From contig CAZPIG010000004.1 in assembly GCA_964586205.1 (NCBI GenBank), forward strand, positions 1 to 44,664: a stretch of DNA of 44,664 bases, written 5' to 3'. Both the position numbers and the translations under genes were made by a program. Each line of letters begins with the position of its first letter. Positions within the stretch are counted from its first letter, which is position 1. The DNA comes from an uncultured Halobacteriales archaeon (GTDB taxonomy: Archaea; Halobacteriota; Halobacteria; Halobacteriales; CAZPIG01). This document shows, piece after piece, positions 8,784-36,150 of the stretch. The notes below the pieces were generated by a model. It was given only the letters and a program-made list of their open reading frames with translations. It made no database searches and was not told where the DNA came from.

Positions 8784-8806
8784 CACCCGAACGAAACTGC
8801 GACGCG

Positions 8807-8815
8807 ATATTAAAA
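8807..8815 (-). promoter_or_regulatory. TATA-box-like element of the livHMGF operon
   Basis: The minus strand reads CTTTTAATAT, centred about 28 nt upstream of the livH ATG (8783). Confidence 0.5.
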
Positions 8816-8951
8816 GCTTCCGTGCCCCTCGCCGCTCTATTCGGACACCGTATCGATGCAACGAACGGTCGCGGCGTGGGGAACGAACGACCGCGGGGCG
8901 GGAGCGGGTGGTCGCCCTCGCGCGGCCGACGACCGTTCCCCCGGCCCGTGG

Positions 8952-9010
8952 TCGGCGCAGTCGGAACGCGGTCCGGCGCAGTTGGGAGGCACAACCCGGC
9001 GCAGTTGGGA
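8952..9010 (+). promoter_or_regulatory. three phased repeats in the livH/pgk divergent intergenic region
   Basis: CCGGCGCAGTTGGGA occurs at 8973-8987 and 8996-9010 (perfect copies). A degenerate copy TCGGCGCAGTCGGAA lies at 8952-8966. Start-to-start spacing is 21 and 23 nt. Confidence 0.5.
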
Positions 9011-9044
9011 AATACCTTTCACGGGCCCTGTTGGAGTTCGACGC

Positions 9045-10249: not shown

Positions 10250-10801
10250 ATGCGCATCGAGCGCCCGGACTTCGACGACGTGGACGCCATCGCCGACCGC
10301 TGGGTGGAACTCGCTCGCGGCCAGCGCGCCCACGGCTCGCGCCTCGCGGCGGACGCCAATCGGACGCGTGCGCGGGAGGCGGTGGCCGGCCACCTCGCCA
10401 CCGACGGCGTGCTGGTGGCGCGGGACGGCGACGACAGGCTCATCGGCTTCGTCACGTACGGGCTGGCCACGGGGGCCTACGAGTCGGACGCGACGCAGGG
10501 GATGGTCCACAACGTCTGGGTCGCGCCGGAGCGGCGCGGGGAGGGCATCGGCGCGGCGTTGCTGTCGCGGGCCGAGGCCGACCTCGCGGAGCGCGGGGCG
10601 GGCGTGGTGGCCCTGGAGGTGCTGGCGGACAACGAGGCGGCGCGGCGGTTCTACCGGCGCGAGGGGTATCGGGAGCACCGGGTGGAGATGGAGAAGCGCG
10701 TGGCCGGCGGGTCGTCGGACCGTGACGAGGAGGCTTCGGAGGATGCGGATTCGTCGGCCGTGGGGTCGGGAGAAAGCGATACTGATTCAAGCGGGGATTG
10801 A
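10250..10801 (+). CDS. GNAT family N-acetyltransferase with acidic Ser/Asp-rich tail
   Basis: ..VWVAPERRGEGIGAALLSRAE..(acetyl-CoA binding Q/RxxGxG/A motif)..NEAARRFYRREGY. Confidence 0.85.
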   Translation: MRIERPDFDDVDAIADRWVELARGQRAHGSRLAADANRTRAREAVAGHLATDGVLVARDGDDRLIGFVTYGLATGAYESDATQGMVHNVWVAPERRGEGIGAALLSRAEADLAERGAGVVALEVLADNEAARRFYRREGYREHRVEMEKRVAGGSSDRDEEASEDADSSAVGSGESDTDSSGD

Positions 10802-10815
10802 CAACTTGGCGGTGG

Positions 10816-10889
10816 GCCAGGGTAGCTTAGTTGGCCAGAGCACTCGATTTGTAATCGAGGGGTCGTGGGTTCGAATCCCACCCCTGGCT
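10816..10889 (+). tRNA. tRNA-Thr: tRNA-Thr (anticodon UGU)
   Basis: Manual cloverleaf: acceptor GCCAGGG/CCCTGGC, D stem GCTT/GAGC, anticodon stem CTCGA/TCGAG with loop TTTGTAA, variable loop GGGTC, T arm GTGGG-TTCGAAT-CCCAC, discriminator T. 74 nt, CCA not encoded. Confidence 0.9.
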
Positions 10890-11046
10890 CCTCTCGGCGC
10901 GAACGGACGTGAGCGCCGTGAGTGCCTTTGGTGGGATTCGAACTAGACGAGACGCAGCCCGCACAACGAGGCGAGCGAAACGAACGGAGTGAGTGAAGCG
11001 AGCCGAGTGAGCAGGACCGTCTCGGCGTAATTCGAATCCCACCCCT
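10890..11046. repeat. mosaic repeat next to the tRNA: GGCGC hairpin module plus a short element bounded by inverted tRNA T-arm copies (copy F)
   Basis: GGCGCGAACGGACGTGAGCGCC (10896-10917) is nearly identical to 44321-44341. GGTGGGATTCGAAC (10930-10943) is the reverse complement of tRNA positions 10869-10882. TTCGAATCCCACCCCT (11031-11046) is a perfect 16-nt direct copy of 10870-10885. The core between them is rich in GCGAGCG, as in the MITE family. Confidence 0.7.
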
Positions 11047-11123
11047 ACTTCGTGTCCGCGCAGTCGAGGAGTTGTCATCACTCCGCCCCAACACCTATTA
11101 CTTTCTATTGCGATCTATTACAC

Positions 11124-11441
11124 GTGCCCATCAGCATCGACCAATTCGACGACGAGCCCGCAGAGGCACTTGACCTCCAGGAGGGAACCCAGCCCTATCG
11201 CATCCTCCAGTTCCTCGCCGAACACGACGACCAGGCGTTCACACAGACCGAGATTCACGAGGCGACGGGCATCAAGCGCGGGAGCGTCGGCGCAGTGCTG
11301 TCGCGACTAGAGGACCGCGGGCTGGTCCGGCATCGGGGTCGGTACTGGGCTATCGCCGAGGACGACCGGCTAGCCTCGTACGCGGCCCAGACCGGGGCCA
11401 GTTCGGAATCGACGAACGACGATTACTACGGAGACGAGTGA
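11124..11441 (+). CDS. winged-helix DNA-binding protein, probable antitoxin/regulator of the downstream PemK/MazF-like gene
   Basis: ..[53 protein letters not shown] is a classic wHTH. The start is uncertain: GTG at 11124 is preferred and the ORF opens at GTG 11052. The stop lies 3 nt before the next ATG. Confidence 0.6.
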   Translation: MPISIDQFDDEPAEALDLQEGTQPYRILQFLAEHDDQAFTQTEIHEATGIKRGSVGAVLSRLEDRGLVRHRGRYWAIAEDDRLASYAAQTGASSESTNDDYYGDE

Positions 11442-11444
11442 CCG

Positions 11445-11774
11445 ATGGCGTACGAGCGCGGCACCGTCGTGAAGGGCCCGGACCTGCTGGCCGACCACGA
11501 CTACCGTCCATACGTCAGTCTCAACGACGACACGCACCCGTTCAGCGACGAGGAAGGGCTCTACGCGGCAGTCACGACGACCCGGCGAGCAGTCGCAATT
11601 CCGTTGACTGACGACGACTTCGTTGCCGGCGGATTACCCCGCGAGAGTTACGTCAACCCTTGGACCATCGTTCCGATTCGGCACGCCGACGTTCGAGACG
11701 AGGAGGGTCGGCTGGTCGATGCGACGACCGAAACAATCGCTCGGGAAGCAGCCGGGTATCTGGGTGTCCGGTAA
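11445..11774 (+). CDS. PemK/MazF-like type II toxin family protein
   Basis: YERGTVVKGPD..RPYVSLNDD..LYAAVTTT..AIPLTDDDFVAGGLPRESYVNPWTIVPI..EGRL follows the SH3-like PemK layout (G-x-V-V, RP-x-V-x-L, hydrophobic-TT, SYV..W). About 60% G+C by eye, lower than the flanks. Confidence 0.6.
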   Translation: MAYERGTVVKGPDLLADHDYRPYVSLNDDTHPFSDEEGLYAAVTTTRRAVAIPLTDDDFVAGGLPRESYVNPWTIVPIRHADVRDEEGRLVDATTETIAREAAGYLGVR

Positions 11775-11854
11775 CAGCTCTTCTACAACTATCCGACGCG
11801 GGGAAAACTGCTACCGAGAAAGGCTGGTTTCACCACGCCATCCTCCCGGAACGG

Positions 11855-12868
11855 TCACTTCCGCCCCTCGGGAACCCCGAGTTCGTCGGCGAGGTCCTCG
11901 AAGATGGACTCCTCGCGGTCCGCGATAGCCCCCACCAGGCTGGCGGCCTCCTCGAACGTCACCGGTCGGGGCTGGTCCTGCTCCAGGACGTCGTCCAGCC
12001 GCTCCACGACCGTCCGCCACTCGTCGGCGACGGCCGCCATCCGGTCGGCGAGGTCGACGGGGAGTCCGGTCCGCTGGCCCAACTCCCCGAGCGCGTCGGC
12101 GTAGAGGCCCCTGTAGGCCGCGCCCTCGCCGTGCTCGTCGACGCTCCGGCGGGCGGCCCGCACCGGCCTGGCCGGGTCGGGGAGGTCCGGCCACGCCCCG
12201 AGATAATCCGCGAACGCCCGCAACGCCGGGAGGCCCTCCTCGCCCGGCCCGCGGGCGTCCCGCTTCACGTGGAGGGGCTCCAGCATGTACGTCGCGGCCT
12301 GCCGGAGGCCAGCCGCGGCCGCGTCGGTTCCGTCCTCGGTCCGGGCCGCCCGGGTCACGACGAGGTACTCGTTGTCCAGCGCCAGGAACCGGTCGTGGGT
12401 CCACGCCTCCGCCAGCGTCGAGCGCGACACCGTCTGTCGACCCTCCATCGCGCCGTCCGACAGTTGCACCGTCCCGTCGTCGTACCCCACCGCGACGGCG
12501 ACGTGCGGCGGGACGTGGCTCTCCGGGAGGTAGTCGAGCGGCTCCGGGTCGAGAAAGAGCACCACCGGGTCGTCGCCGTCGACGCGCTCGGCCACGTTCC
12601 CCCACGCCGTCTCGAAGTCGTCGCCCTCCCGGAACAGGTGGGGAACGCCGAGTCGCTCGAGGAAGGCCCGCTCCAGCCACGCCGGGGTGGTCCGGGCGAC
12701 GACCCACGGCTCGTCGGGGTGCTCGTAGAGGACGAACGCCGGGCCGCCGCCGACGCCGAAGCACGTCGCCTCGCTGTAGTTCCAGTCGTAGTACGCGGTG
12801 AGGTTCCGGAGCGCGGCCGCCCCGCAGTGGACGCCCGGCTGGTGGTTGTAGCCTTCGACGACCTCCAT
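11855..12868 (-). CDS. BtrH_N-like (papain-like fold) plus DUF4872-like protein
   Basis: N-terminus ..GYNHQPGVHCGAAALRNLTAYYDWNYSEATCFGVGGGPAFVLY.. matches my memory of the butirosin BtrH N-terminal domain pattern (HC..., SE..fG.G.G..F.Y). The rest is helical and Ala/Asp/Glu-rich. Confidence 0.55.
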   Translation of the reverse strand: MEVVEGYNHQPGVHCGAAALRNLTAYYDWNYSEATCFGVGGGPAFVLYEHPDEPWVVARTTPAWLERAFLERLGVPHLFREGDDFETAWGNVAERVDGDDPVVLFLDPEPLDYLPESHVPPHVAVAVGYDDGTVQLSDGAMEGRQTVSRSTLAEAWTHDRFLALDNEYLVVTRAARTEDGTDAAAAGLRQAATYMLEPLHVKRDARGPGEEGLPALRAFADYLGAWPDLPDPARPVRAARRSVDEHGEGAAYRGLYADALGELGQRTGLPVDLADRMAAVADEWRTVVERLDDVLEQDQPRPVTFEEAASLVGAIADREESIFEDLADELGVPEGRK

Positions 12869-12916
12869 ACGACCTAGACGGCCCGCGGACAGTTAACTCC
12901 CCGCGAGGGCGGGCGG

Positions 12917-14190: not shown

Positions 14191-14371
14191 GGCTGTTCTC
14201 TGGGCATCTCTTACTGGGCAGGCGAAAATCCGGATGTTGGCGCTGAACTAGACAAAAGATATCCGTGCCAAAAAGGGCAGCCAGGGGTTGCCAGACTGTA
14301 GTTTCAGGAATTCAACTGTTGGTTTGTTATTGGCGACTATACTCTCGACGCGAATATTTTAATACACCAAA

Positions 14372-14380
14372 TTTATATAT
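14372..14380 (+). promoter_or_regulatory. TATA-box-like element of the OLD nuclease gene
   Basis: TTTATATAT is centred about 27 nt upstream of the ATG at 14403. Confidence 0.5.
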
Positions 14381-14402
14381 TGGGAGTTATTTGATACAAA
14401 CC

Positions 14403-16364
14403 ATGGCAGATATTGTGAGTGTTAGAATTGAAAATTACAAATCAATCGTTGATACAGAATGGGTTGATATCCACCCTGAAACGACAGTATTAATCGGCCC
14501 AAATGAAGCAGGAAAAACTAACTTTTTAGAAGCCCTCGGAAAATTCCCGCCAGGTAAGACCATCCGCTCAAGAGATTTAAGTGAGTACATTACTGAAGAG
14601 GGTGAACAGACACCGGATTGTAGGATATCGATAGAGGTTGAAGATCTTCAGGTAGACGTAACAGCAAGTATAGGCCAAAGACGGTATAGGGAAATTGCAG
14701 GAGAATTCTCAGGCATTATTCATAAATATAGAGGAGGAACCTATGAGTTCGTTGCAAAAAACGACATATCCCCACTAGCTGACTACCAATCCTCACGGAA
14801 TCAATTCATTGACCGCCTTATTGCAAAGTGGTCAGAAAGATTTAGAGAAACTCCAGATCTCCCAACTATCCCAGGTCGTAGGCTCCAAGCGACAGGTGCG
14901 GATAGGGACACAGATGAAAAATATGAACTTCTTATGAGGACCTTTGAAAACGTTCAGGATACACTGAATCAACAAGAGGAATTGGATGATGATCTGGACC
15001 ATCAACTATCTCAGATTGAAAGTGATTTAACTAAACTTAGAAATATGGAGCCAATCGGCAAAGTGCTCGCCAAACAGGCATTTAACCCCATTTTCTATAG
15101 GGAATTCGACTCTGTTCCGGATCGAGTTGCGTACAGTGATCTCTCCAGCTCCCAAGGGAAATATAGAACTATTTTGAACTTCATTGGTATCCCGCCTGAT
15201 GAACTCCAGGAGATGCCATCACCTGAAAGACGGGAACGTATACAGAGAGGTATTAAGAGATTTGAGGAGATTTTTAATAACTACTGGCCAGGAGACGATA
15301 TTGGATTTAATTTAGACCTAGTCGGCGAGAATATTGAGTTGTTAGTGTCCGATTCATGGGGAACAGAGCAATTCCTATCCCAACGAAGCCAAGGATTCCA
15401 GCATTTTCTATCATTTGTTATAGAATATGTTCAATACAGTGGAATGACCGAAAATATGGTATTGGTTGACGACCCTGATCTGCATCTTCATCCTGAGGCA
15501 CAGAAAGAGTTCCGAGCAGCACTGAATAATATAGCCGAAGAACAACAAATGATATATTCGACACACTCTCCGTACATGGTGGACAAATCCGAACTTAGTA
15601 TGCTGAGACTTGTGGAAAAAGATGATGAATCTAAAGGAACAGAGATTGTCGCCAACTTTTCCTTGTCGGATAGAATTAAAGATGACGTTCTAAGTCCTAT
15701 TAGAGCATCACTGGGAGCCACTTTTGCGGATTCGTTGTTTGCTAGTAAACACACTATTCTCGTGGAAGGATATACTGATAGAGTTTATATAAATAGAATT
15801 GATAAATACATAAAGAAGCAAAATGGGGAGAGCGCCTTAGACTACGATGTCACCATATTAGATGTTGGAAGCGCTTCAAATCTGCTCAAGTATGCTCGGT
15901 TACTTGAATCTGAAGGTTATGAATATGCAATATTCGCCGATACAGATAATGCCGGGAGAAGAGCTGTTGAGAAGATAAAATCCAGTGAAACTGTCTCTGA
16001 AGACAAAATTGTAACACCCTCGGATATTCTTGTGGATGAATATGGAAATGAAGAGGACAAAGAAATTGAAGATCTCTTTGCTCCAGAATTCTATAGCGAA
16101 CAAGTAGCAGATTGTTATAATATAGAGATTGACGAAGTCCATGATGCCCTAAATGGGCCAGAGTCGCCTCCGGAAGAGTCAATAAAGGGCCTTTTTAAGT
16201 GCTTACAGAATAAAGAGGAACGTGAATTAGAACCCTTCGATAAGTCTAATGTTGCCGATGCTATAGATGAAGGAATATATAGTGGGAATGTTAACGTCGA
16301 TGATAATACATTGGGGAACTTCATAGAATTATTCGCCGAATTCAACGATGCGATGAATTCTTAA
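14403..16364 (+). CDS. OLD-family ATP-dependent nuclease (ABC-type ATPase plus C-terminal Toprim), stand-alone
   Basis: Walker A GPNEAGKTNFLEAL, a long helical insertion, Walker B MVLVDDPDLHLHP, H-loop-like YSTHSPYM. Toprim motifs HTILVEGYTDRVY (Glu) and YAIFADTDNAGRRA (DxD). About 32-35% G+C on sampled lines. Confidence 0.85.
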   Translation: MADIVSVRIENYKSIVDTEWVDIHPETTVLIGPNEAGKTNFLEALGKFPPGKTIRSRDLSEYITEEGEQTPDCRISIEVEDLQVDVTASIGQRRYREIAGEFSGIIHKYRGGTYEFVAKNDISPLADYQSSRNQFIDRLIAKWSERFRETPDLPTIPGRRLQATGADRDTDEKYELLMRTFENVQDTLNQQEELDDDLDHQLSQIESDLTKLRNMEPIGKVLAKQAFNPIFYREFDSVPDRVAYSDLSSSQGKYRTILNFIGIPPDELQEMPSPERRERIQRGIKRFEEIFNNYWPGDDIGFNLDLVGENIELLVSDSWGTEQFLSQRSQGFQHFLSFVIEYVQYSGMTENMVLVDDPDLHLHPEAQKEFRAALNNIAEEQQMIYSTHSPYMVDKSELSMLRLVEKDDESKGTEIVANFSLSDRIKDDVLSPIRASLGATFADSLFASKHTILVEGYTDRVYINRIDKYIKKQNGESALDYDVTILDVGSASNLLKYARLLESEGYEYAIFADTDNAGRRAVEKIKSSETVSEDKIVTPSDILVDEYGNEEDKEIEDLFAPEFYSEQVADCYNIEIDEVHDALNGPESPPEESIKGLFKCLQNKEERELEPFDKSNVADAIDEGIYSGNVNVDDNTLGNFIELFAEFNDAMNS

Positions 16365-18510: not shown

Positions 18511-18801
18511 ATGACGGAAAACGAAGTCTGGTCTCCTCGAATTGGTGTGAGAAGAACGGAAAGAGAAAGCATTCTCTTGTTCCTTTCACAGGAGGAAGCG
18601 GCTGAGAAGAGAGAACTGAGGAATGAAATTCGCATGACTCGAGATGGGGCCGAACAGCATCTGAAATATTTAGAAGAAAATGGTTTCGTGGATAAAACGC
18701 TGGTCAGTACAGGGATGAAATCTCAGTATTCCCTTACCGAGGAAGGTAAACGCCTAGCAGCAGAAATTCGATGGGGTGATGACTCTCAAAGAAAGCCTTG
18801 A
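18511..18801 (+). CDS. small winged-helix transcriptional regulator
   Basis: ..ILLFLSQEEAAEKRELRNEIRMTRDGAEQHLKYLEENGFVDKTLVSTGMKSQYSLTEEGKRLA is a wHTH of ArsR/PadR/MarR type. AT-rich codon usage. Confidence 0.6.
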   Translation: MTENEVWSPRIGVRRTERESILLFLSQEEAAEKRELRNEIRMTRDGAEQHLKYLEENGFVDKTLVSTGMKSQYSLTEEGKRLAAEIRWGDDSQRKP

Positions 18802-18807
18802 ACGAGA

Positions 18808-19593
18808 TCATGATAATGAGTTGATCATGAAGAGCACCTCAAATTGAGGTGTCACTCTATCATTTCGATACTTCACATTCCTTAGAATGCCGGTGAGATA
18901 TACATGTCCATCAGTCTTGGTTAGTTCCTCATATTTCCTGTCTTTAGGGTATTTTCCTGCAGTAACGCACTCAATTGTGTTGTCGTCAAAAGTGACTTCA
19001 AAATCAACAACGGGCACAGTGGTCGTTCCTTGGCTAACCTGGATCGCGCTATTCGCACAGCCGTTTTGACCACATATCTCAATTGTTTCGTTTGTATATA
19101 TCGGTTGTGCAATACGAGAAGTGTGTCCTTCCGGACACCGGTAGCCTATCGTTCGAGCTTTTCGTTCCCTTACAATGTCTTCTCCAATTGGAACATGAAA
19201 AGAAACCAATCTGTTTGGTTTCTTGACCAATGTGTCAAAGGTATTTATCTCGAATCCAGGGTGTCCAATTGATCTACTCCTAGAGGAGCAGACGTGGAGA
19301 AACAGTAAATCGTAATCACGACCTTTCGCTGTATCAATACCTTCTTCGTCCACGAAGTCAGCAAACCCCTTCCTTGCGTCTCTGAGGACTTGATCTGGGA
19401 ATCTACGAAGATGTTCAGTCTCGATATTGAAATCATACTCGCCACTGGCAGGGTTTAATTCGCCTACACGGAGGGTCAGAGAGTTGTAGATTGGCTCTTC
19501 TGCAGCTGATTTCAGACTCCGGTACCCCGAGCTGGCATACTTCGCAGACCAGTAGTTCTTCCAATCGCTAGTATAATCTGGAGGTTCGGGCAT
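18808..19593 (-). CDS. orphan MCM N-terminal-domain-like protein (helical subdomain, zinc motif, OB fold; no AAA+ module)
   Basis: The order of elements parallels archaeal MCM N-domains. (1) ..FNIETEHLRRFPDQVLRDARKGFADFV (helical A subdomain). (2) LVSFHVPIGEDIVRERKARTIGYRCPEGHTSRIAQP...EICGQNGC (strand, C-x3-H...C-x4-C zinc motif). (3) VVDFEVTFDDNTIECV.. (OB strands). (4) ..DGHVYLTGILRNV (the GD-x-V-x-V-T-G-I-x-R-like end). The ORF itself is confident; the domain call is by eye only. Confidence 0.45.
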   Translation of the reverse strand: MPEPPDYTSDWKNYWSAKYASSGYRSLKSAAEEPIYNSLTLRVGELNPASGEYDFNIETEHLRRFPDQVLRDARKGFADFVDEEGIDTAKGRDYDLLFLHVCSSRSRSIGHPGFEINTFDTLVKKPNRLVSFHVPIGEDIVRERKARTIGYRCPEGHTSRIAQPIYTNETIEICGQNGCANSAIQVSQGTTTVPVVDFEVTFDDNTIECVTAGKYPKDRKYEELTKTDGHVYLTGILRNVKYRNDRVTPQFEVLFMINSLS

Positions 19594-19692
19594 AAACGAC
19601 CAAGAGCCTGTTACTTGAAGTAGGTTCCGATGGTTCTACCCTTCTACTCCTAAGAGAATGTCTTCGGAAACATTTTACCAGTAACAACCTCA

Positions 19693-20376
19693 ATGGATAC
19701 CAAACGAACCAGAGGTTACCAGTCCATGTCAGACCAAATTTTCATATCCCACAGTAGGGAGGACAAGGATCTCCTCGACGAGCTTGATCGGGTTTTCGGG
19801 AAAGTAGGTCTAAAGCAGTACAGAGCTAGCTTTGAGGATCAATCTCCAGCAGTCAGCGAAGACCTAAAATCCCAGATAAATGACTCAGTAGGGATGTTTG
19901 TCGTATTAGGCAGACGAGCACAAGCGAAAACGCATACGATGATTTGGATTGGCTGGGAGGCCGGGATTGCCATCCAAGCTGGAATTCCAGTTTGGATTTT
20001 AGAGGATATGCAATCGAATGTGACGCAGCCTATTCCGAGCTTTACCGATTATGTTCTTTGGAACTCTCAAGAAAATAAACAAAAAAGGATTTTGAGAGAC
20101 GTGATTGAGAACGAATTCGTCAACTCCCGTTCTCGTGATGTAACAGAGTACTTCGAACCCCAAACAAAGGACTCAAATAGCCTTGTGGGTCAAAATAGAA
20201 ATAACGCCAACGTTCGGAATAGTCAAGTCAACAAGGAGACACAGGGGATTAGGTGTCCATACGATGACTGTGGCGAGAAATTTGTCATCCGGTTTGAAGG
20301 CCCCAGCGAATTTAATTGTCCATCCTGTAGACAAGCCGTTGTGTTAGAGGAAGAATCAGATCCATATTCGTGGTAG
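19693..20376 (+). CDS. ThsB/DUF1863-type TIR-like domain protein with C-terminal zinc ribbon
   Basis: QIFISHSREDKDLLDEL.. then ..SVGMFVVLGRRAQAKTHTMIWIGWEAGIAIQAGIPVWILED (TIR-like layout with a W..E helix). C-terminal CPYDDC..(16)..CPSC. An alternative ATG lies at 19726. Confidence 0.55.
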   Translation: MDTKRTRGYQSMSDQIFISHSREDKDLLDELDRVFGKVGLKQYRASFEDQSPAVSEDLKSQINDSVGMFVVLGRRAQAKTHTMIWIGWEAGIAIQAGIPVWILEDMQSNVTQPIPSFTDYVLWNSQENKQKRILRDVIENEFVNSRSRDVTEYFEPQTKDSNSLVGQNRNNANVRNSQVNKETQGIRCPYDDCGEKFVIRFEGPSEFNCPSCRQAVVLEEESDPYSW

Positions 20377-28629: not shown

Positions 28630-28911
28630 TCACCCCCAGTCGTCCGCCATCGGGTGGCCGCTGTCCTCGATGACGCCCATGGCGGCCTCGAAGGCGGCGT
28701 CGGCCGTCCCGAACTCCCCGTGGTGGGTCCACTCGCCCGACTGCTGGTCCGTGGTGTACACGTCGAACGCCCCGCCACGGTACTCGTGGGACTCGACGTA
28801 GAGCTCGTTCGCTACCTGTCCGTCGTGCTCGTCGTCTTCTGTTTCGTCGACGAGGAGGTAGACGCCCAGTTCTTTCCCGCCTTCGAGGTCGCGCCGGCGG
28901 TGCCACTGCAT
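28630..28911 (-). CDS. small acidic hypothetical protein
   Basis: 93-aa ORF with GC-rich third positions and acidic, His-rich composition. No family recognised. Confidence 0.5.
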   Translation of the reverse strand: MQWHRRRDLEGGKELGVYLLVDETEDDEHDGQVANELYVESHEYRGGAFDVYTTDQQSGEWTHHGEFGTADAAFEAAMGVIEDSGHPMADDWG

Positions 28912-29102
28912 GGCTTCTAGGGGTACGGGGGCCTAGTGGGTATAGGTGAGGGGGGATAGAGTGATCGTCGATGCTGATCCTAAAATTCACGTTTGTTAAT
29001 ATAGTTGAAAGGCATGGCCTTCTGGGGAAGTACCTCGATTCCTCGCTGCATGCCAAGTGAAGGACTGGACATGTGAACGGATTTTCTCTGGAGGATGCGT
29101 AG

Positions 29103-29110
29103 AATTAAAA
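29103..29110 (+). promoter_or_regulatory. TATA-box-like element of the OGG-fold gene
   Basis: AATTAAAA is centred about 29 nt upstream of the ATG at 29136. Confidence 0.4.
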
Positions 29111-29135
29111 GGTACTCGCTTTCTTGTCTTCTTCA

Positions 29136-29753
29136 ATGGCCATCAACTGGAATCGATGGGTCAAAATATACGAGTTTACAGTGGACGACCCATCAATAGA
29201 ATACAAGGATCCAGACATTCGAAATTGGACTGAGGAACGCGACCCACGTTTTAGCAACATCTCTTTAGAAATCCAGCAGCGGTCCTCTCCTCGTATTGGC
29301 CCTTTTGAACTTGCCAACATTACCAAATGGTTAATAGGAACTGACATTCTGAAAGGGCACGTAATGGATAATAATACAAGCACAGTGAAACGACAAACAG
29401 AGATAGCTTTCAGCCAATGTTCAAATCCAGCAGAAAGGATTGAGGAGCTAATCGCACTCAAAGGGGTGAGCGTGCAAGTAGCCTCAGCAGTTCTAACCGT
29501 ATACAATCCGGGTCGATTCGCTGTTATCGACCATCGCGTCCTTCGAGGATTAGCTGCTATTCGCCCAAGTCTTACCGACCCTGCAAACTATTCTCGATAT
29601 GCTGGATTCATTCAGTCACTAATAGATTACAACCAGAATCCGCAGACGTATCAGTTCTACATGGATGAGGTTCGCCAGATCGCGAATGCCGAAAATCTCC
29701 AACCAAGAGAAGTCAACATGGCACTATGGGCATTCGACCGCGATAACGTATAG
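29136..29753 (+). CDS. helix-hairpin-helix protein resembling the '8-oxoguanine DNA glycosylase OGG fold' family
   Basis: ..ELANITKW...(N/S-rich).. and ..ERIEELIALKGVSVQVASAVLTVYNPGRFAVIDHRVLRGL resemble the HhH motif (L..L.GVg...AS.iL.....P..f.i.D.r). ATG at 29136 (the ORF opens at TTG 29124). About 43% G+C on a sampled line. Confidence 0.45.
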   Translation: MAINWNRWVKIYEFTVDDPSIEYKDPDIRNWTEERDPRFSNISLEIQQRSSPRIGPFELANITKWLIGTDILKGHVMDNNTSTVKRQTEIAFSQCSNPAERIEELIALKGVSVQVASAVLTVYNPGRFAVIDHRVLRGLAAIRPSLTDPANYSRYAGFIQSLIDYNQNPQTYQFYMDEVRQIANAENLQPREVNMALWAFDRDNV

Positions 29754-29761
29754 CTTCACGT

Positions 29762-29818
29762 GTAGTGGGATGGTTTGTTGGACTATTAGTTTATGATTTG
29801 TGAACCGGCCCCCACTAC
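29762..29818. terminator. hairpin with T-tracts between convergent islet genes
   Basis: GTAGTGGG (29762-29769) pairs with CCCACTAC (29811-29818). The intervening loop is T-rich (TTTGTT, TTTATGATTT). Confidence 0.3.
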
Positions 29819-29828
29819 TTATACGCCA

Positions 29829-30305
29829 TCAGACCTTTTCTGGCTGTTCAACCACATAGACGACCCGATAGGGGAGGGTATTGAATGTAGAAGTCCACCT
29901 CAACTGGGACTCCCGAAGCCCATCGTTAACTGATTTCACTTCGACAAACAGATACTCAAATTCCTGTCTCGAGTGACATTGATACAGGAAGAAATCCGGC
30001 TTCCCATCTTGGGTGATCGCTGTCAATGGATGGATAGAATACAGTGGACCGAGCGAATAGTTATCCCTCAGGTGCTCTCTGAGTTCTTCTTGGAGTGCTT
30101 CTGGAACGCTACTATCATTCTGGAGTGCCCCCGATTCTATGGGAGAATCAAGCCCTACAACCTCATAGCCAGCGTCTAAATAATAGTCTGCAACAATACG
30201 CTCTGACTCGGTATTCTCGGTAGAGTATTCTACTGTCTGGCTATTTGAACCCACTTCACTCCCAAGCTCAACAAGAAAATAATCCTTCACATCGTCTGAA
30301 ACCAT
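29829..30305 (-). CDS. VRR-NUC (PD-(D/E)xK) nuclease domain protein
   Basis: ..ERIVADYYLDAGYEVVG.. then ..DGKPDFFLYQ....YLFVEVKSVNDGLRESQLRW..YRVVYV. This matches the VRR-NUC hallmark G-x-PD-hydrophobic ... hydrophobic-E-V-K-x-x-x-D-x-L-x-x-x-Q-x-x-W. Confidence 0.65.
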   Translation of the reverse strand: MVSDDVKDYFLVELGSEVGSNSQTVEYSTENTESERIVADYYLDAGYEVVGLDSPIESGALQNDSSVPEALQEELREHLRDNYSLGPLYSIHPLTAITQDGKPDFFLYQCHSRQEFEYLFVEVKSVNDGLRESQLRWTSTFNTLPYRVVYVVEQPEKV

Positions 30306-30498
30306 ACGTTGAAATCTATTTCGTCATCCAGGTATATGAACGTTGAATACAAATACTCTCATCTGATTGATAACAGTCCCAAACAGCGACTAGTCCTCGG
30401 GTAAAAAGCATTAGCTATTTTGATTGACCGCGATTGCGAAACTTCCTCGGATCACGATGTAATGGAATTGGCCAGTGTAGTAAAACGATGAATAGAGA

Positions 30499-31113
30499 CT
30501 ACTCATCAATTTCAACGGACTCATAGACGGCTAGCGCACGTCCATCAATATCATGATAGTACTTCGTAGAATCGTCACTCCTGAGGCCTCGTACAAACAT
30601 CCGGATGTCGTCTCCTGACGTCACTGTATTCACCACTAAGACAACTTTTCCCAGGACAGTGGCGATTGGAGAAACGGCCATGATGACCAGAGATGCTGCA
30701 AAAAGGTTGATGACGAACAAAGGAGCGAGCGTTATAAGCTGGTATTCTCCGACGTCGATCCAATTGCCTGAGATATAGTTATAAGGATTCTTTCCGTGAA
30801 GCATTGGTTTGAGTTTGACCTCAGAATGGTATCCAACCATCCCCGATGCAATCTCGTGGACCTTCTCATGAATGACTGTGTTAATGAATGCGATAAAGAG
30901 AACAATTATGATAGGAAAGAGGAGCTGAATCGGGTCTTCGAATTCGAGTATGACACCAATACGGCTCACTATCAGACTCTGCCTGATTCCTGGCGTATAG
31001 ACGAGAAGTGAGCCCCCGGCGACCAAAATCATCCAGACTACGGAACTCAGAAGACTCCGAGGCACAGCCTTCGGTTCAGTATATCCATTTGGAGACTCCG
31101 GCAGTTCACGCAT
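30499..31113 (-). CDS. DUF3267-like putative membrane zincin metallopeptidase
   Basis: HExxH (IHEKVHE) sits directly after a TM helix, with 3-4 further TM segments. ATG at 31113 (the ORF opens at TTG 31143). Confidence 0.5.
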   Translation of the reverse strand: MRELPESPNGYTEPKAVPRSLLSSVVWMILVAGGSLLVYTPGIRQSLIVSRIGVILEFEDPIQLLFPIIIVLFIAFINTVIHEKVHEIASGMVGYHSEVKLKPMLHGKNPYNYISGNWIDVGEYQLITLAPLFVINLFAASLVIMAVSPIATVLGKVVLVVNTVTSGDDIRMFVRGLRSDDSTKYYHDIDGRALAVYESVEIDE

Positions 31114-31317
31114 GTACAGGACTCCGTAGCGGCATCCCTTCAATCATGTCGCCATTCGCGTTTTCTATGTATTTCTAGAATGGTATAGAAACCATGCTGG
31201 TCGCTCCATTGGATAGGGGGCTCGACTTTATCTATTTCACAATCATCGGAACGGTCTACGTGAGTCTGGAGCTTTGCTGAAAAGCGCGTTCCTCAGTACC
31301 TATCCGCAAAGTGCCCG

Positions 31318-31890
31318 TCAATCCGAGATGAACTTGTTGTCCCGCCAATCCACACCGCTATCCCCGGCACCGGCGGCACCGGGGCCCTCTACGACCTCCA
31401 CAGTAGCCTGCCGGGGCTCGCCCTCCACGATTCGCGTCGCCACTAGCTCGCCGTCCTCCGCGGTTATCGCGGTCAGCGTCCCCTTCTCCGACAACAGCGC
31501 GATGTCGCGCAGCACGAGGAACATCTCGTACTGCAGCGCCGAGTTCTGCAGGACCGTCTCGCGGTCGCCCTTGAACGCGGCGAACTCGACCAACTCCGAG
31601 GGTATCTCCTCCTCTTCCTCCTCGCCCCACTGCGGCCCCGCGGGACCGGGCTCGGGCTCCTCCTCGTAGACCCGGTTCTCGGTCACGCTGGCCTTCAACT
31701 GGGCGGTGGGGGTGTACTTGCTGATGCTGTCGTCCTCGGAGACGGCCTTGATGATGAGCGTGTTGTTCCGACGGGTGACGTCGACGTCCGCGACGCCCTC
31801 CGGGAAGTTCGCGGCCTCCGCGAGGTGCTCCTCGACCGTCTCCAGGGGGAGTTCGAGCGTCGAATGCAGCCTGTATACGCGGCCTGTCAT
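31318..31890 (-). CDS. conserved-looking acidic hypothetical protein
   Basis: ATG at 31890 inside the run-on ORF 31318-32202. MTGRVYRLHSTLELPLETVEEHL.. with a poly-Glu linker. High GC3. Confidence 0.65.
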   Translation of the reverse strand: MTGRVYRLHSTLELPLETVEEHLAEAANFPEGVADVDVTRRNNTLIIKAVSEDDSISKYTPTAQLKASVTENRVYEEEPEPGPAGPQWGEEEEEEIPSELVEFAAFKGDRETVLQNSALQYEMFLVLRDIALLSEKGTLTAITAEDGELVATRIVEGEPRQATVEVVEGPGAAGAGDSGVDWRDNKFISD

Positions 31891-31973
31891 GATTTCCGTG
31901 GGAGCGCCCGGTGGTGGGTCCGTAGGGCCTGCGTGCTTAAATGGCCTGTCTTTCCGTGGCTTTCCCGACGACG

Positions 31974-32318
31974 CTACGCCGTCGCCAGCCGGTCGCCCAG
32001 CTCGCCGCGCTCGTCGAGCTCCGCGACCACGTCGCTGCCGCCGACGAACTCGCCGTCGACGAACACCTGCGGGATGGTCTCCCAGCCGCTGCGGGCCTCG
32101 AGGGCCTCGCGGTACTCGGGCAGCGCGTCTAGGACGTCCACCGTCGCCACGTCGTCGCGGTGCTTGGTGAGGATGCCCAGCGCGCGCCGCGAGTAGCCAC
32201 ACTGGGGCATCAGCTCGGTGCCCTTCATGAACAGCACGACGTCCTCCTCCTCGATGGCGCTCTCGACGCGCTCCTCTACGGCGGACTGGCTGAGTTCCTC
32301 GCCGGGCTGGAACGTCAT
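31974..32318 (-). CDS. monothiol glutaredoxin (Grx4-like, CGYS active site)
   Basis: ..VVLFMKGTELMPQCGYSRRALGIL.. and ..WETIPQVFVDGEFVGGSD are glutaredoxin motifs. ATG at 32318 inside the run-on ORF. Confidence 0.85.
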   Translation of the reverse strand: MTFQPGEELSQSAVEERVESAIEEEDVVLFMKGTELMPQCGYSRRALGILTKHRDDVATVDVLDALPEYREALEARSGWETIPQVFVDGEFVGGSDVVAELDERGELGDRLATA

Positions 32319-34641: not shown

Positions 34642-36150
34642 TTATGAATCGGGGTCGTTGATACTCGTATATTCACAGTCCAGCCACGTGGAGAGGTCCG
34701 TCGTAGTTTTGAGTGTGGTGTTGAACGACTCGCAGGGGCAATCGGTTCCCAGATACTCGTAGTAGCTCCATTGGAATCCGCCTCTCGTCTCCAGTTCGGG
34801 GGTAAGCCCGTCACCGGCTGGATTTTCGACCTGGATGGCAACACCAGCGGTGTTGTCAGTGGTGTCGGGAAAGTAATCACTGCCGGGACTATCCTCATTG
34901 AGACCAGTGAGCGGAAGATCCCAGTGCCATTGTGTTTGGTCCCCGTCCTGATTCTTCTGCACATCGTCACTCGTCATGGCATCCCCGTTCAGGGAGTATT
35001 CCACAATTATACTCGCGACACCACCCAACGGTCCAGTCACAGAATTGACAAGGTCGAGAACGAGCCCAATCATGTCGTCGTCGGGCGATGTATCGTTGTT
35101 TTGGCCATCCGGACGAGGGTTGTTTAGTTCGGTATTGAAGTTACTGTTATTAGGACCATGCTCAATGAAAGCCTCCACACCAGCCTGGTGGGGGAAACCA
35201 GATTTCTGGTCGCAGGGCATCAGCAGGGAGTCCGGAATCTCTTCGAAAAATCCATCCATATGCCATGGTTTCTGACTCGACTGGATGATCTCGTCGTAGT
35301 CAGATTCCACGTTCCCACTACTATCGTAGCGGACTTTCGCCGAAGTGCTGAACTCGTAGTCCCACGTCATGTTCACGAAGTCGTCGTCGCATCTGTCCGG
35401 GAGAGTGTGCGTTATCCCTCCTTCCATTGACGTTCGGTTCAGGATTCCCACATCGCCTCCATCTGCGTTCGTCGTTACGGAGTCCGTGGTCACCGATTCG
35501 GACAAGTCCTCGCCTTTGGCATCGGAAGTCGAAGTCTCCTCACTCGAAGCCATCCGCGAGACGTTCCGGATACTGTTATCCCGAGGAATCCCGGTCGCGG
35601 GGATCTGGATCTGGTCGAAGCCCGGGACCTGACCCCTGAAGCGCTCCGGATGGAGCGCAGAACCGATGGCCTCTTTGGTGAACCCACGGTCGGTCGCGCC
35701 CAGCGAGAACGCAATCTTCCCGTACCCCGGGGACGGACGCGTGAGCGTCCCGGTGGCTGTATCGCCGTCCGTTTCGAGATAACCCTTCAGGTGGAGGTCC
35801 TCTCCGTCCTCCTGAACGACGTGCTCCGGACGCCGCGACTCGAAGTAGTACCTCGATGCCGTAGGATGGGAATCCACGTCCTCGAGCGGTTCGTCCTCGC
35901 CGACCGGAACGACGAACCCCGCGAGCTTCAACGTCCCGGTAAGGCCGTTTTCGGTCAGCTCCAGTGTGGCAGTTGCGTCGCCTTGCTCCTTGTCCGTGAC
36001 CGGGTCGTAGCTCTTGCCGACGAACCGTCGCTTTCCTAGCTTCTCCGCCCCAGCGGACGAAGTGGCGAGGGTCGCGGCCCCGAGAACCCCGACAGTCTGG
36101 TTGAGTAGCGTTCGCCGTCTGATGGTCACCCCAACGCCTTCTTCCGGCAT
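34642..36150 (-). CDS. Tat-secreted protein of unknown function (lower-GC gene)
   Basis: TIRRRTLLNQTVGVLGAATLATSSAGA is a twin-arginine signal. The mature part is rich in Asp/Thr/Ser/Asn/Gly, with Cys residues clustered near the C-terminus (..TDCPCESF..WLDCEY). Composition is mixed, about 45-65% G+C on sampled lines. Confidence 0.7.
   Translation of the reverse strand: MPEEGVGVTIRRRTLLNQTVGVLGAATLATSSAGAEKLGKRRFVGKSYDPVTDKEQGDATATLELTENGLTGTLKLAGFVVPVGEDEPLEDVDSHPTASRYYFESRRPEHVVQEDGEDLHLKGYLETDGDTATGTLTRPSPGYGKIAFSLGATDRGFTKEAIGSALHPERFRGQVPGFDQIQIPATGIPRDNSIRNVSRMASSEETSTSDAKGEDLSESVTTDSVTTNADGGDVGILNRTSMEGGITHTLPDRCDDDFVNMTWDYEFSTSAKVRYDSSGNVESDYDEIIQSSQKPWHMDGFFEEIPDSLLMPCDQKSGFPHQAGVEAFIEHGPNNSNFNTELNNPRPDGQNNDTSPDDDMIGLVLDLVNSVTGPLGGVASIIVEYSLNGDAMTSDDVQKNQDGDQTQWHWDLPLTGLNEDSPGSDYFPDTTDNTAGVAIQVENPAGDGLTPELETRGGFQWSYYEYLGTDCPCESFNTTLKTTTDLSTWLDCEYTSINDPDS

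What the first reader, a model, noticed from the sequence alone, without database searches (positions are those of the whole stretch)
28930..31270. Low-GC islet encoding an OGG-fold HhH protein, a VRR-NUC nuclease and a membrane HExxH protein as a candidate base-excision/nuclease defence module
**Position.** About 2.3 kb of roughly 43% G+C sequence (sampled line) sits between a small native gene (28630-28911) and a conserved acidic protein gene (31318-31890).

**Gene content:**
- 29136-29753 (+) carries ..ERIEELIALKGVSVQVASAVLTVYNPGRFAVIDHRVLRGL. This is the helix-hairpin-helix region of the family commonly annotated '8-oxoguanine DNA glycosylase OGG fold protein'.
- 29829-30305 (-) has the VRR-NUC hallmark GKPDFFLY...FVEVKSVNDGLRESQLRW.
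- 30499-31113 (-) is a multi-TM protein with HEKVH, DUF3267-like.

**Interpretation.** Pairing a glycosylase-like DNA-base reader with a PD-(D/E)xK nuclease suggests recognition and cleavage of modified or foreign DNA. DNA glycosylases have recently been shown to act in anti-phage defence in bacteria. I know of no described system with this three-gene composition, in archaea or elsewhere.

**Caveat.** The genes are not one operon. The HhH gene converges on the nuclease gene, so functional linkage is inferred only from co-residence in a tiny foreign islet.
Basis: partly seen in the sequence, partly recalled or inferred. Interest (0 to 1): 0.7.

Follow-up and report, generated by a model that had tools for sequence, protein, structure and literature searches.

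The report
AT-rich islet with three unlinked genes
A 2.4-kb AT-rich insert in a GC-rich haloarchaeal chromosome carries three real but apparently unrelated imported genes; only the DNA-glycosylase-like one has traceable relatives (mobile elements, a haloarchaeal virus, bacterial restriction-modification clusters), and it never sits with the other two, so the proposed three-gene defence module is not supported.

Summary
Window 28912-31317 is about 46% G+C (GC3 45-51%) between native genes with GC3 of 89-95%. It holds three intact ORFs: a helix-hairpin-helix (HhH) glycosylase-like protein (AlphaFold2 pLDDT 96; all top PDB fold matches are Ogg/MutY/OGG1), a VRR-NUC nuclease and a DUF3267 HExxH membrane protein, the last two above Pfam thresholds.

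The three-gene module is not supported.
- The OGG-like protein belongs to a family of about 1,440 cluster representatives. In haloarchaea its homologues lie beside tyrosine integrases at the edge of AT-rich islands. They also occur in pleolipoviruses HHPV3 and HHPV4, and as a single-gene islet.
- In bacteria, four of eight contexts place it next to restriction-modification genes.
- Across 55 loci (446 kb, 1,569 ORFs) no VRR-NUC or DUF3267 relative accompanies it. Those two window proteins have no detectable homologues at all. PADLOC finds nothing.

The closest described analogues are the single-gene, mobile, AT-rich defence-associated HhH glycosylases (Dag) that attack 7-deazaguanine phages.

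The window copy keeps the HhH Gly and catalytic Asp132. It uniquely lacks four family-invariant residues (K66L, R71I, P114Q, D194N), so its activity is doubtful.

Verdict: imported accessory genes, with a new and possibly degenerate member of a known kind. Interest is low to moderate.

The parts
28912..31317 (.). AT-rich islet (about 46% G+C) lying between the 5' end of a native 93-aa gene and the 3' end of the DUF7110 gene
   Evidence: Composition profile. GC3 is 45-51% inside against 89-95% outside. No flanking direct repeats, integrase or tRNA. It is absent downstream of DUF7110 in all 80 related genomes fetched.
29136..29753 (+). OGG-like HhH-GPD-fold protein of 205 aa. It is a divergent member of a mobile family of about 170-205-aa proteins. 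It keeps G110, P125/G126...D132, R134, R191 and W198. It has L66, I71, Q114 and N194 where the family has K, R, P and D.
   Evidence: 1,440 representatives; PF21790, NF002305, and profile alignment to MutY and MjaOgg over the HhH and Asp; pLDDT 96.4; only glycosylases among the top 50 PDB fold matches; residue census; 39% identity to HHPV3/HHPV4 ORFs; phrog_24538, E 1.9e-27.
29829..30305 (-). VRR-NUC (PD-(D/E)xK) nuclease of 158 aa with an acidic N-terminal region of about 95 aa. It converges on the HhH gene with 75 bp between the stop codons.
   Evidence: PF08774 at 30.8 bits against a cut-off of 23.8, profile positions 62-110 of 116. Motif GKPD103...E122-V-K124...SQLRW read from the sequence. 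Weak hit to phrog_5702 'Holliday junction resolvase', E 8e-4. No homologue in 5.8 billion proteins, phages, plasmids or IMG/VR.
30499..31113 (-). DUF3267 putative membrane zincin of 204 aa with about four hydrophobic segments and HEKVH. It lies upstream of the VRR-NUC gene on the same strand, across a 193-bp spacer of 40% G+C.
   Evidence: PF11667 at 28.8 bits against a cut-off of 27.1. Sequence. No tblastn hits in phages or plasmids and no pattern-scan match in IMG/VR. No PDB relative.
28630..28911 (-). Native 93-aa acidic protein gene forming the left flank. It is not part of the islet.
   Evidence: GC 67%, GC3 89%. No Pfam hit.
31318..31890 (-). Native DUF7110 gene forming the right flank. 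It is paired with a glutaredoxin-like gene across Halobacteria.
   Evidence: PF23422 at 315 bits. The grx-DUF7110 pair is conserved in most of the 80 loci.

Best explanation
The islet is a small patch of horizontally acquired DNA carrying three independently acting accessory genes. It is not one system.

**The HhH gene (inferred function).** It belongs to a widespread, self-contained, single-gene family of OGG-like HhH-GPD proteins that travels on mobile elements. By analogy with the experimentally shown Dag glycosylases, the family most likely flips out and excises a non-canonical base, such as a 7-deazaguanine-type base, from invading DNA. The resulting abasic sites are left to host AP endonucleases or block replication. 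No dedicated nuclease partner is needed. The family has Pro at the Ogg2 Schiff-base lysine position, so a monofunctional chemistry is inferred.

**The window copy.** It keeps the HhH hairpin Gly, the Gly/Pro...Asp132 catalytic motif and the stacking Trp198. It has uniquely replaced four family-invariant residues (K66L, R71I, P114Q, D194N). It is either re-specified or, about equally likely, catalytically impaired.

**The other two genes.** The VRR-NUC gene most likely encodes a structure-specific recombination or replication nuclease of the donor element. The DUF3267 gene encodes a membrane metalloprotease-like protein. They may form their own co-directional pair, but nothing links them to the glycosylase.

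**Shown:** fold, family, contexts, residue states and lack of co-localisation. **Inferred:** substrate, antiviral role and activity.
For: **Fold and family.**

**Single-gene mobility in haloarchaea.**
- Homologues sit in 43-52% G+C patches in 60-70% G+C haloarchaeal contigs. One case is a one-gene islet of about 1 kb (L100/L103).
- A tyrosine integrase lies directly upstream in L085, L087, L088 and L089 (PF00589, E 4e-17).
- An HHPV4-like integrase is adjacent in L113 (45% identity).
- Phage_integrase is the commonest neighbour family.
- Homologues occur in pleolipoviruses HHPV3 and HHPV4 (39% identity, 97% coverage, E 5e-40). In HHPV4 the gene lies two genes from HHPV4I. HHPV4I is a proven virus-borne m6A-dependent restriction enzyme proposed to exclude other viruses (PMC10101028). 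Both genes sit in the integrase-containing accessory block (PMC5867852).

**Bacterial members.** They abut Type III mod/res genes (L135), a Type ISP-like methyltransferase at a 23-28 bp gap (L129, L131/132), or lie two genes upstream of an N6_N4 methyltransferase plus ResIII helicase in a co-directional gene run (L125/L126). They also lie near an AAA_15 ATPase, a KAP NTPase and transposases.

**No partner.** There are 0 VRR-NUC or DUF3267 relatives in 55 loci.

**Local context.** Two other AT-rich islets in the same window carry defence-type genes. One is an OLD-family ATPase-TOPRIM (PADLOC Old, 2e-33). The other is a TIR-like protein (ThsB, 8e-9).

**Precedent.** Nineteen integron-borne HhH-superfamily Dag glycosylases act alone against 7-deazaguanine phages. 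They are AT-rich and associated with mobile elements, and PSI-BLAST finds 135 homologues in Methanobacteriota, among them three listed haloarchaeal proteins, two of them with an integrase gene in the surrounding 20 kb (bioRxiv 10.1101/2025.10.29.685425 and its supplement).

**A plausible target exists.** Halovirus HVTV-1 DNA has dPreQ1 at about 30% of its guanines (PMC6884629).
Against: - No activity data exist for any member of this family.
- Sequence-level membership in a named Dag family could not be tested.
- Fold matches are significant as a class but weak individually (E about 0.01, TM 0.41-0.46).
- The window copy lacks K66, R71, P114 and D194. The family has these in 228/234, 220/235, 199/234 and 201/232 (D; Glu in a further 26) of sequences. 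In Dag1, D184 lies four residues before the stacking W188, the same D-x-x-x-W spacing as family D194...W198, and D184A abolishes defence; that these positions correspond is inferred from the spacing, not from an alignment.
- PADLOC has no model that hits it.
- One bacterial member lies in a housekeeping-looking context (L127).
- With no homologues for the VRR-NUC and DUF3267 proteins, their independence from each other cannot be tested.
Confidence: 0.55

Rival explanations
1. The three genes form one defence module: the glycosylase-like protein recognises a modified or foreign base, and the VRR-NUC nuclease (with the membrane zincin) then cleaves the DNA or executes the response.
For: The three genes co-reside in one 2.4-kb foreign islet of uniform composition. 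A family that appears monofunctional (Pro or Gln at the lyase lysine position) could in principle profit from a nuclease. Neighbouring islets in the window carry defence-type genes.
Against: There is no co-occurrence in 55 loci and 1,569 ORFs, nor in the eight bacterial family members' contigs examined. The OGG-like gene occurs alone (L100) or with an integrase. The HhH and VRR-NUC genes converge, with spacers of 75 and 193 bp. VRR-NUC is not an AP-endonuclease family (established knowledge). PADLOC finds nothing. Known defence glycosylases (Brig1, Dag) work as single genes (PMC11078745; bioRxiv 10.1101/2025.10.29.685425).
Confidence: 0.06
2. The islet is a decaying remnant of an integrated mobile element, such as a pleolipovirus-like provirus or an integrative plasmid, that has lost its integrase. 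The OGG-like gene is degenerating and none of the three genes has a current function for the host.
For: In relatives the OGG-like gene is the first cargo gene next to an integrase at the edge of larger AT-rich islands, and it occurs in HHPV3 and HHPV4. The window islet has no integrase or att repeats. The window protein uniquely lost four invariant residues. Another copy (L113) even lacks Asp132. The VRR-NUC and DUF3267 genes are orphans.
Against: All three ORFs are intact and full length. The OGG-like protein models at pLDDT 96 with every helix in place. Two proteins still score above the Pfam gathering thresholds. No stop codons or frameshifts are seen. Nothing else from HHPV3 or HHPV4 is detectable in the islet (tblastx).
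Confidence: 0.25
3. The HhH protein is an ordinary DNA-repair glycosylase (Ogg2-type 8-oxoguanine removal) that happens to be horizontally acquired.
For: The best structural matches are archaeal Ogg enzymes. Some family members hit NCBIfam NF002305 'N-glycosylase/DNA lyase' (best E 1e-8).
Against: The window protein gives no NF002305 match (searched to E<=1; cut-offs for that model were not shown). The Ogg2 catalytic Lys position is Gln here and Pro in 199 of 234 family members. The gene distribution is patchy, mobile and virus-borne rather than core. Housekeeping glycosylases are not AT-rich islets.
Confidence: 0.07

Closest known systems
Defence-associated HhH glycosylases Dag1-Dag17 (Getz et al., bioRxiv 10.1101/2025.10.29.685425)
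   Same: They are small single-gene proteins of the HhH glycosylase superfamily that cluster structurally near the archaeal Ogg enzymes. They are carried in AT-rich, mobile-element-associated DNA and are undetectable by ordinary annotation. PSI-BLAST homologues are reported in haloarchaea, some with an integrase gene within 20 kb. A D-x-x-x-W motif (Dag1 D184/W188) has the same spacing as the family's D194-M-A-L-W198.
   Different: Sequence relationship to any named Dag family was not testable here. The window family has Pro or Gln where a bifunctional HhH lysine would sit, whereas Dag1 K118 is essential. The window copy has Asn at the D-x-x-x-W aspartate. The hosts here are archaea and an archaeal virus rather than Vibrio integrons. 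No activity is shown.
Archaeal Ogg2 8-oxoguanine glycosylase/lyases (MjaOgg 3KNT/3FHF, SsOgg 3FHG; NCBIfam NF002305, Pfam PF22175)
   Same: These are the best PDB fold matches. The size is the same (about 205 aa). The HhH hairpin, the catalytic Asp and the C-terminal stacking Trp all align.
   Different: TM-scores are only 0.41-0.46 and identity is 14-17%. The lyase Lys (K129) is replaced. The window protein does not reach the family models. The genomic context is mobile rather than core.
Pfam PF21790 'OGG-like' and Cap11 of type IV CBASS (bioRxiv 10.1101/2025.04.06.647259)
   Same: Cap11 is an OGG-related protein of about 23 kDa found in defence operons (bioRxiv 10.1101/2025.04.06.647259). 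Separately, 11 of 50 family members give weak PF21790 hits (best E 2.8e-4); that PF21790 covers Cap11 was not checked here.
   Different: The window protein itself has no PF21790 hit. No CD-NTase, QueC or TGT genes appear in the islet or in any homologue neighbourhood examined. Cap11 is dispensable for defence and is proposed to be a regulator.
HHPV3 ORF17 and HHPV4 ORF8 (Betapleolipovirus) and PHROG 24538
   Same: These are direct homologues (39% identity over 97% of the protein, E 5e-40). They are also AT-rich (40% against about 60% G+C) and lie in the integrase-containing accessory block that also holds the antiviral restriction enzyme HHPV4I.
   Different: They are uncharacterised 'putative proteins'. 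The viral copies keep K66, R71, P114, D132 and D194. The window islet shares no other virus gene.
VRR-NUC nucleases (PF08774; FAN1 C-terminal domain and phage stand-alone forms)
   Same: The Pfam hit is above threshold. The PD...ExK core and the S-Q-x-x-W motif are present.
   Different: Only the C-terminal half of the profile aligns. The protein has an acidic N-terminal extension of about 95 aa. No sequence homologue is detectable anywhere that was searched.

Membership tests
HhH-GPD DNA glycosylase superfamily | Helix-hairpin-helix with a hairpin Gly, followed about 20 residues later by a Gly/Pro-rich stretch and an invariant catalytic Asp | tested here: met
   The window has L108-K-G110-V-S...P125-G126...V-I-D132-H-R. 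G110 is conserved in 232/235 and D132 in 230/234 family members. The profile aligns these positions to the MutY and MjaOgg HhH and Asp.
HhH-GPD DNA glycosylase superfamily | Two-domain all-alpha glycosylase fold | tested here: met
   The AlphaFold2 model has pLDDT 96.4 and pTM 0.93. All top 50 Foldseek PDB hits are Ogg, MutY or OGG1 (best probability 0.99, TM 0.41-0.46, E 0.013). The match is divergent but consistent.
Ogg2 (NF002305 / PF22175) bifunctional 8-oxoG glycosylase/lyase | Schiff-base Lys in the second HhH helix (MjaOgg K129) | tested here: not met
   The aligned position is Q114 in the window and Pro in 199 of 234 family members.
Ogg2 (NF002305 / PF22175) bifunctional 8-oxoG glycosylase/lyase | Scores above the curated family cut-off | tested here: not met
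   The window protein has no NF002305 or PF22175 hit. Its only NCBIfam hit is TIGR01084 mutY at E 0.1 (12 bits against a cut-off of 286).
Pfam PF21790 OGG-like (Cap11-type) | Sequence match to the model | tested here: not met
   The window protein has no hit at E<=1. Eleven of 50 relatives hit weakly, best 2.8e-4. The window family is therefore a distant relative, not a member.
Pfam PF21790 OGG-like (Cap11-type) | Type IV CBASS operon context (CD-NTase, QueC-like Cap9, TGT-like Cap10) | tested here: not met
   The islet holds only three ORFs and none is of these types. No such Pfam families occur among the neighbours.
Defence-associated glycosylases (Dag) | HhH-superfamily fold in a single-gene unit within AT-rich or mobile DNA | tested here: met
   
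Defence-associated glycosylases (Dag) | Essential Lys, Asp and stacking Trp (Dag1 K118, D184, W188) | tested here: inconclusive
   W198 is present. The Asp four residues before it is Asn194 in the window (Asp in 201 and Glu in a further 26 of 232 family sequences). There is no Lys at the HhH position. Family K66 is Leu in the window. Equivalence to Dag1 residues is inferred from spacing only.
Defence-associated glycosylases (Dag) | Sequence homology to a named Dag family | not testable with these tools
   Dag sequences are not in the accessible collections. Accessions of family members were not found in the stored, truncated supplement.
Defence-associated glycosylases (Dag) | Protection against phages or viruses with modified guanine | not testable with these tools
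   This needs an experiment.
VRR-NUC (PF08774) | Profile match above the gathering score and a PD-(D/E)xK catalytic triad | tested here: met
   The score is 30.8 bits against 23.8. D103 (in GKPD), E122 and K124 (in VEVK) are read from the sequence. Only profile positions 62-110 align.
DUF3267 putative zincin (PF11667) | Profile match above the gathering score, HExxH, and a multi-pass membrane protein | tested here: met
   The score is 28.8 bits against 27.1. HEKVH and about four hydrophobic segments are read from the sequence.
Known anti-phage systems (PADLOC-DB v2) | Any component model matching any of the three proteins | tested here: not met
   There are 0 hits at E<=1 for all three.

The most novel reading that the evidence does not exclude
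The OGG-like family may be an uncharacterised class of HhH 'restriction-type' glycosylases. In bacteria, members would work with adjacent methyltransferases (Type ISP-like MTase-TRD proteins that lack their own nuclease, and Type III mod/res genes). In haloarchaea, members would be carried by pleolipoviruses and integrative elements as single-gene superinfection-exclusion factors. The window copy, with K66L, R71I, P114Q and D194N, would be a re-specified variant that recognises a different base or acts as a non-catalytic base reader.
Probability: 0.15. Interest if true: 0.6.

Novelty: new member of a known kind. Interest (0 to 1): 0.3.

Why it matters
If members of this OGG-like family are active antiviral glycosylases, glycosylase-based immunity (Brig1, Dag) would extend to archaea and to archaeal viruses that use it against competitors. 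It would also give haloarchaea a counter to 7-deazaguanine-modified haloviruses such as HVTV-1. The recurrent bacterial pairing with methyltransferases that lack a nuclease hints at restriction systems whose restriction arm is an HhH glycosylase. For this particular window the practical message is more modest. The islet is a mixed bag of imported genes, and its glycosylase-like copy is an atypical and possibly disabled variant. It is not a good starting point for experiments. The consensus copies in HHPV3 and HHPV4, or the integrase-adjacent homologues, are better ones.

Tried and rejected
1. **Single-sequence searches for the HhH protein.** Pfam and NCBIfam gave only sub-threshold hits. The PDB gave no glycosylase match, only a chance E 1.2 hit. 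The word-index protein search gave a single homologue. A two-sequence AlphaFold model was poor (pLDDT 53). The profile route was needed.
2. **VRR-NUC homologues.** None were found in 5.8 billion proteins, phages or plasmids, IMG/VR or the PDB. DUF3267 gave none in phages, plasmids or IMG/VR or the PDB. Their neighbourhood conservation could therefore not be analysed.
3. **Presence/absence in close relatives.** The best DUF7110 relatives are only 67-76% identical. Downstream of DUF7110 none of the 80 fetched genomes has asd or the 93-aa gene within 10 kb, so the window's gene order is not shared there. No empty-site comparison was possible. Two of 66 relatives have an unrelated AT-rich patch at the same position; in L049 it holds HTH regulators.
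4. **Integration signatures.** The islet has no convincing flanking direct repeats, tRNA or integrase. The window's AT-rich islets share no sequence with each other. Rfam finds only the tRNA-Thr at 10816.
5. **Provirus-remnant test.** tblastx of all four islets against HHPV3, HHPV4 and every homologue locus found nothing outside the OGG-like gene.
6. **PADLOC census of neighbour ORFs.** It was uninformative because it was swamped by UvrD/GajB models from two ORFs.
7. **Link to named Dag families through the preprint's supplementary tables.** The accessions did not match and no sequences are held.
8. **Compensated frameshift.** This was rejected as the cause of the aberrant W-L-I-G-T-D-I segment. 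Alternative frames of 29322-29375, read by eye from the sequence, contain stops and no W-K...R motif. An independent assembly is identical.


Full report
**1. What is there**

The window is haloarchaeal-type DNA of about 70% G+C. Between 28.9 and 31.3 kb the G+C fraction drops to 0.44-0.49. At gene level the contrast is extreme. GC3 is 95%, 89% and 89% for asd, the 93-aa gene and DUF7110. It is 45%, 47% and 51% for the three islet genes.

The three ORFs exist as described:
- 29136-29753 (+), 205 aa.
- 29829-30305 (-), 158 aa.
- 30499-31113 (-), 204 aa.

The VRR-NUC and DUF3267 assignments pass the Pfam gathering thresholds: 30.8 against 23.8 bits, and 28.8 against 27.1 bits. The PD...ExK residues and the HExxH motif are visible in the sequence. 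A Logan assembly contig is 100% identical across the whole islet.

**2. The HhH protein**

Alone it gives only sub-threshold hits: HHH at E 0.079 and mutY at E 0.1. The word-indexed search finds a single homologue. A full HMMER pass over 1.84 billion representatives finds 1,440 proteins at E<=1e-3 and 164 at E<=1e-10, most of them 165-210 aa.

Of 50 aligned members, 11 hit Pfam PF21790 ('OGG-like') and NCBIfam NF002305 (N-glycosylase/DNA lyase). A few hit nth, mutY or ogg. The family profile aligns its L-x-G-V-x-V-P-x-A-S...V-I-D-x-R block to the HhH and catalytic Asp of MutY and M. jannaschii Ogg. It aligns its D-M-A-L-W block to the C-terminal L-D-L-Y-I-W of MjaOgg.

With the 50-sequence alignment AlphaFold2 gives pLDDT 96.4 and pTM 0.93. 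All top 50 Foldseek PDB matches are HhH-GPD glycosylases. The best are MjaOgg 3KNT (probability 0.99) and SsOgg 3FHG (TM 0.46). The 'OGG-fold HhH' call is therefore right at superfamily level. The protein is not a member of Ogg2 or PF21790 by their models.

**3. Catalytic residues**

I aligned 235 family members. The window protein keeps:
- W65.
- N79.
- The hairpin G110-V111.
- A116-S117.
- P125.
- D132 (230/234 members).
- R134.
- R191.
- W198.

The Ogg2 lyase-lysine position is Pro in 199 of 234 members and Gln in the window. A bifunctional mechanism through that lysine is therefore excluded for the whole family.

The window copy alone departs at four of the most conserved columns:

| Position | Family residue | Family count | Window residue |
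|---|---|---|---|
| 66 | K | 228/234 | L (the only Leu) |
| 71 | R | 220/235 | I |
| 114 | P | 199/234 | Q |
| 194 | D | 201/232 (D), plus 26 E | N |

Among 21 haloarchaeal-type sequences, only the window and one other copy deviate. That other copy is L113, which also lacks D132. The virus copies keep the consensus.

In Dag1 the essential D184 sits four residues before the stacking W188 (preprint). This is the same spacing as D194...W198 here. The equivalence is inferred, not shown. The window copy may thus be re-specified or impaired.

**4. Where the family lives**

I recovered 36 metagenomic and 2 IMG/VR loci.
- The homologue typically sits in a 43-52% G+C patch in 60-70% G+C haloarchaeal contigs. 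In L100/L103 it forms a one-gene islet.
- A 396-aa tyrosine integrase lies directly upstream on the same strand in L085, L087, L088 and L089.
- An HHPV4-like integrase (45% identity) is adjacent in L113.
- Phage_integrase is the commonest Pfam family among 120 neighbour ORFs.

tblastn against GenBank phages finds the gene in Haloarcula hispanica pleomorphic viruses 3 and 4 (39% identity, 97% coverage, E 5e-40). There it is annotated only as a 110-aa C-terminal fragment. It is AT-rich there too (40% G+C).

In HHPV4 it belongs to the integrase-containing accessory block (PMC5867852). It lies two genes from HHPV4I, a proven virus-borne m6A-dependent restriction enzyme proposed to exclude competing viruses (PMC10101028).

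I looked up eight bacterial members on long contigs. Four are next to restriction-modification genes:
- directly downstream of Type III mod/res genes (L135);
- 23-28 bp upstream of an ISP_coupler/N6_Mtase/Type_ISP_C protein of about 1,026 aa that lacks nuclease and helicase domains (L129, L131/132);
- two genes upstream of an N6_N4_Mtase followed by a ResIII helicase, in the same co-directional run (L125/L126).

Others lie near transposases, a KAP NTPase or an AAA_15 ATPase. One context looks housekeeping.

**5. The linkage test**

No VRR-NUC or DUF3267 relative accompanies any homologue.
- tblastn finds none at E<0.01 in 40 loci.
- phmmer --max over 1,569 ORFs from 55 loci (446 kb) gives a best E of 0.92.
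- No VRR-NUC motif match is found.
- Neither family appears in the precomputed Pfam lists.

The VRR-NUC and DUF3267 proteins themselves have no detectable sequence homologues. PADLOC gives no hit for any of the three.

The HhH and VRR-NUC genes converge, with 75 bp between their stops. DUF3267 and VRR-NUC are co-directional with a 193-bp AT-rich spacer.

**6. Origin of the islet**

The islet has no integrase, tRNA or flanking repeat. It shares nothing else with HHPV3, HHPV4 or the homologue loci.

The grx-DUF7110 pair is conserved in most of the 80 genomes fetched. The genes found downstream of DUF7110 in the window, islet included, are absent within 10 kb in all 80 genomes. The closest are only about 75% identical. 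An empty-site comparison is therefore impossible.

The same window has two further AT-rich islets of similar size with defence-type cargo. One carries an OLD-family ATPase-TOPRIM (PADLOC Old, 2e-33). The other carries a wHTH protein, an unknown protein and a TIR-like protein (ThsB, 8e-9). This genome seems to accumulate small defence-flavoured AT-rich cassettes.

**7. Comparison with what is known**

The closest functional analogues are the Dag proteins (bioRxiv 10.1101/2025.10.29.685425).
- Nineteen validated single-gene HhH-superfamily glycosylases from Vibrio integrons restrict 7-deazaguanine-modified phages.
- Ordinary annotation does not detect them.
- They lie in AT-rich regions close to mobile elements.
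- Their PSI-BLAST homologues include 135 in Methanobacteriota. Among them are listed proteins from Natronorubrum and Halovenus with an integrase gene in the surrounding 20 kb.

I could not test sequence membership because no Dag sequences are accessible.

Cap11 of type IV CBASS is another OGG-like defence accessory, but the operon context is absent here.

A plausible target class exists in haloarchaea. HVTV-1 DNA carries dPreQ1 at about 30% of its guanines (PMC6884629).

**8. Verdict**

- Observation: confirmed.
- Interpretation: partly supported. The domain calls, the foreign origin and a plausible defence flavour for the glycosylase-like gene stand. The three-gene base-excision/nuclease module does not.
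- Best reading: three independent imported genes. The HhH gene is a divergent and possibly disabled member of a mobile, virus-borne and restriction-modification-associated OGG-like family that probably acts alone.
- Novelty: a new member of a known kind.
- Interest: about 0.3. The more interesting lead is the family as a whole, not this islet.

Noticed in passing
window 14265-16364 (+), within the AT-rich islet at about 14.1-16.5 kb (39-44% G+C): A stand-alone OLD-family ATPase-TOPRIM protein (Pfam AAA_15 and OLD-like_TOPRIM; PADLOC Old 2e-33, AriA 5e-30, GajA 4e-28). It sits alone in its own AT-rich islet upstream of ribosomal protein genes. No GajB or AriB partner ORF was seen.
   Followed up: partly
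window 18511-20376, within the AT-rich islet at about 18.3-20.4 kb (44-47% G+C): A second islet, just after ndk, carries three genes. They are a wHTH protein (18511-18801), an unknown 261-aa protein (18808-19593, -) and a TIR-like protein with a C-terminal zinc-ribbon-like CxxC...CxxC (19693-20376; PADLOC ThsB 8e-9, Pfam TIR_2 sub-threshold). This is possibly a Thoeris-like or novel TIR module.
   Followed up: partly
window 34642-36150 (-): A region of about 55% G+C encodes a 502-aa protein with a Tat-like signal (RRRTLL...). It has no Pfam or PADLOC hit.
   Followed up: no
L123 (HHPV3, NC_047928.1) 10936-11532 (-); L124 (HHPV4, NC_047943.1) 4089-4685 (-): The deposited annotations call only a 110-aa ORF (ORF17 in HHPV3, ORF8 in HHPV4). 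The homology to the OGG-like family runs over about 196 aa within an intact 223-aa ORF. The viral gene is therefore under-annotated, and PHROG 24538 (109 positions) inherits the truncation.
   Followed up: partly
L129 5001-8607; L131 and L132 5001-8618; L135 1-5516; L125 and L126 5001-10137: Bacterial members of the family sit 23-28 bp upstream of a protein of about 1,026 aa with ISP_coupler, N6_Mtase and Type_ISP_C domains but no nuclease or helicase. This occurs in two unrelated contigs. Another member sits directly after Type III mod/res genes, and another lies two genes upstream of an N6_N4_Mtase and ResIII helicase. This may be an R-M-like system with an HhH glycosylase as its restriction arm.
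   Followed up: partly
L113 8001-8633 (+) with an integrase at 8797-9801 (-): This copy of the OGG-like gene lies next to an HHPV4-like integrase (45% identity). It has lost the catalytic Asp132 (Ser), K66 and P114. It is a second, independently degenerate or re-purposed variant.
   Followed up: no
L049 (Natronorubrum sp. FCH18a) 10600-12900: At the same position downstream of DUF7110 this genome carries a different patch of about 2 kb at 49% G+C. It encodes HTH-type regulators (119-aa and 222-aa ORFs). The site may be a recurrent landing place for AT-rich DNA. Only 2 of 66 relatives show such a patch.
   Followed up: partly
window 31318-32300 and loci L003-L082: A glutaredoxin-like gene directly upstream of DUF7110 is conserved in nearly all Halobacteria sampled. 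This suggests a functional pair for this family of unknown function.
   Followed up: no
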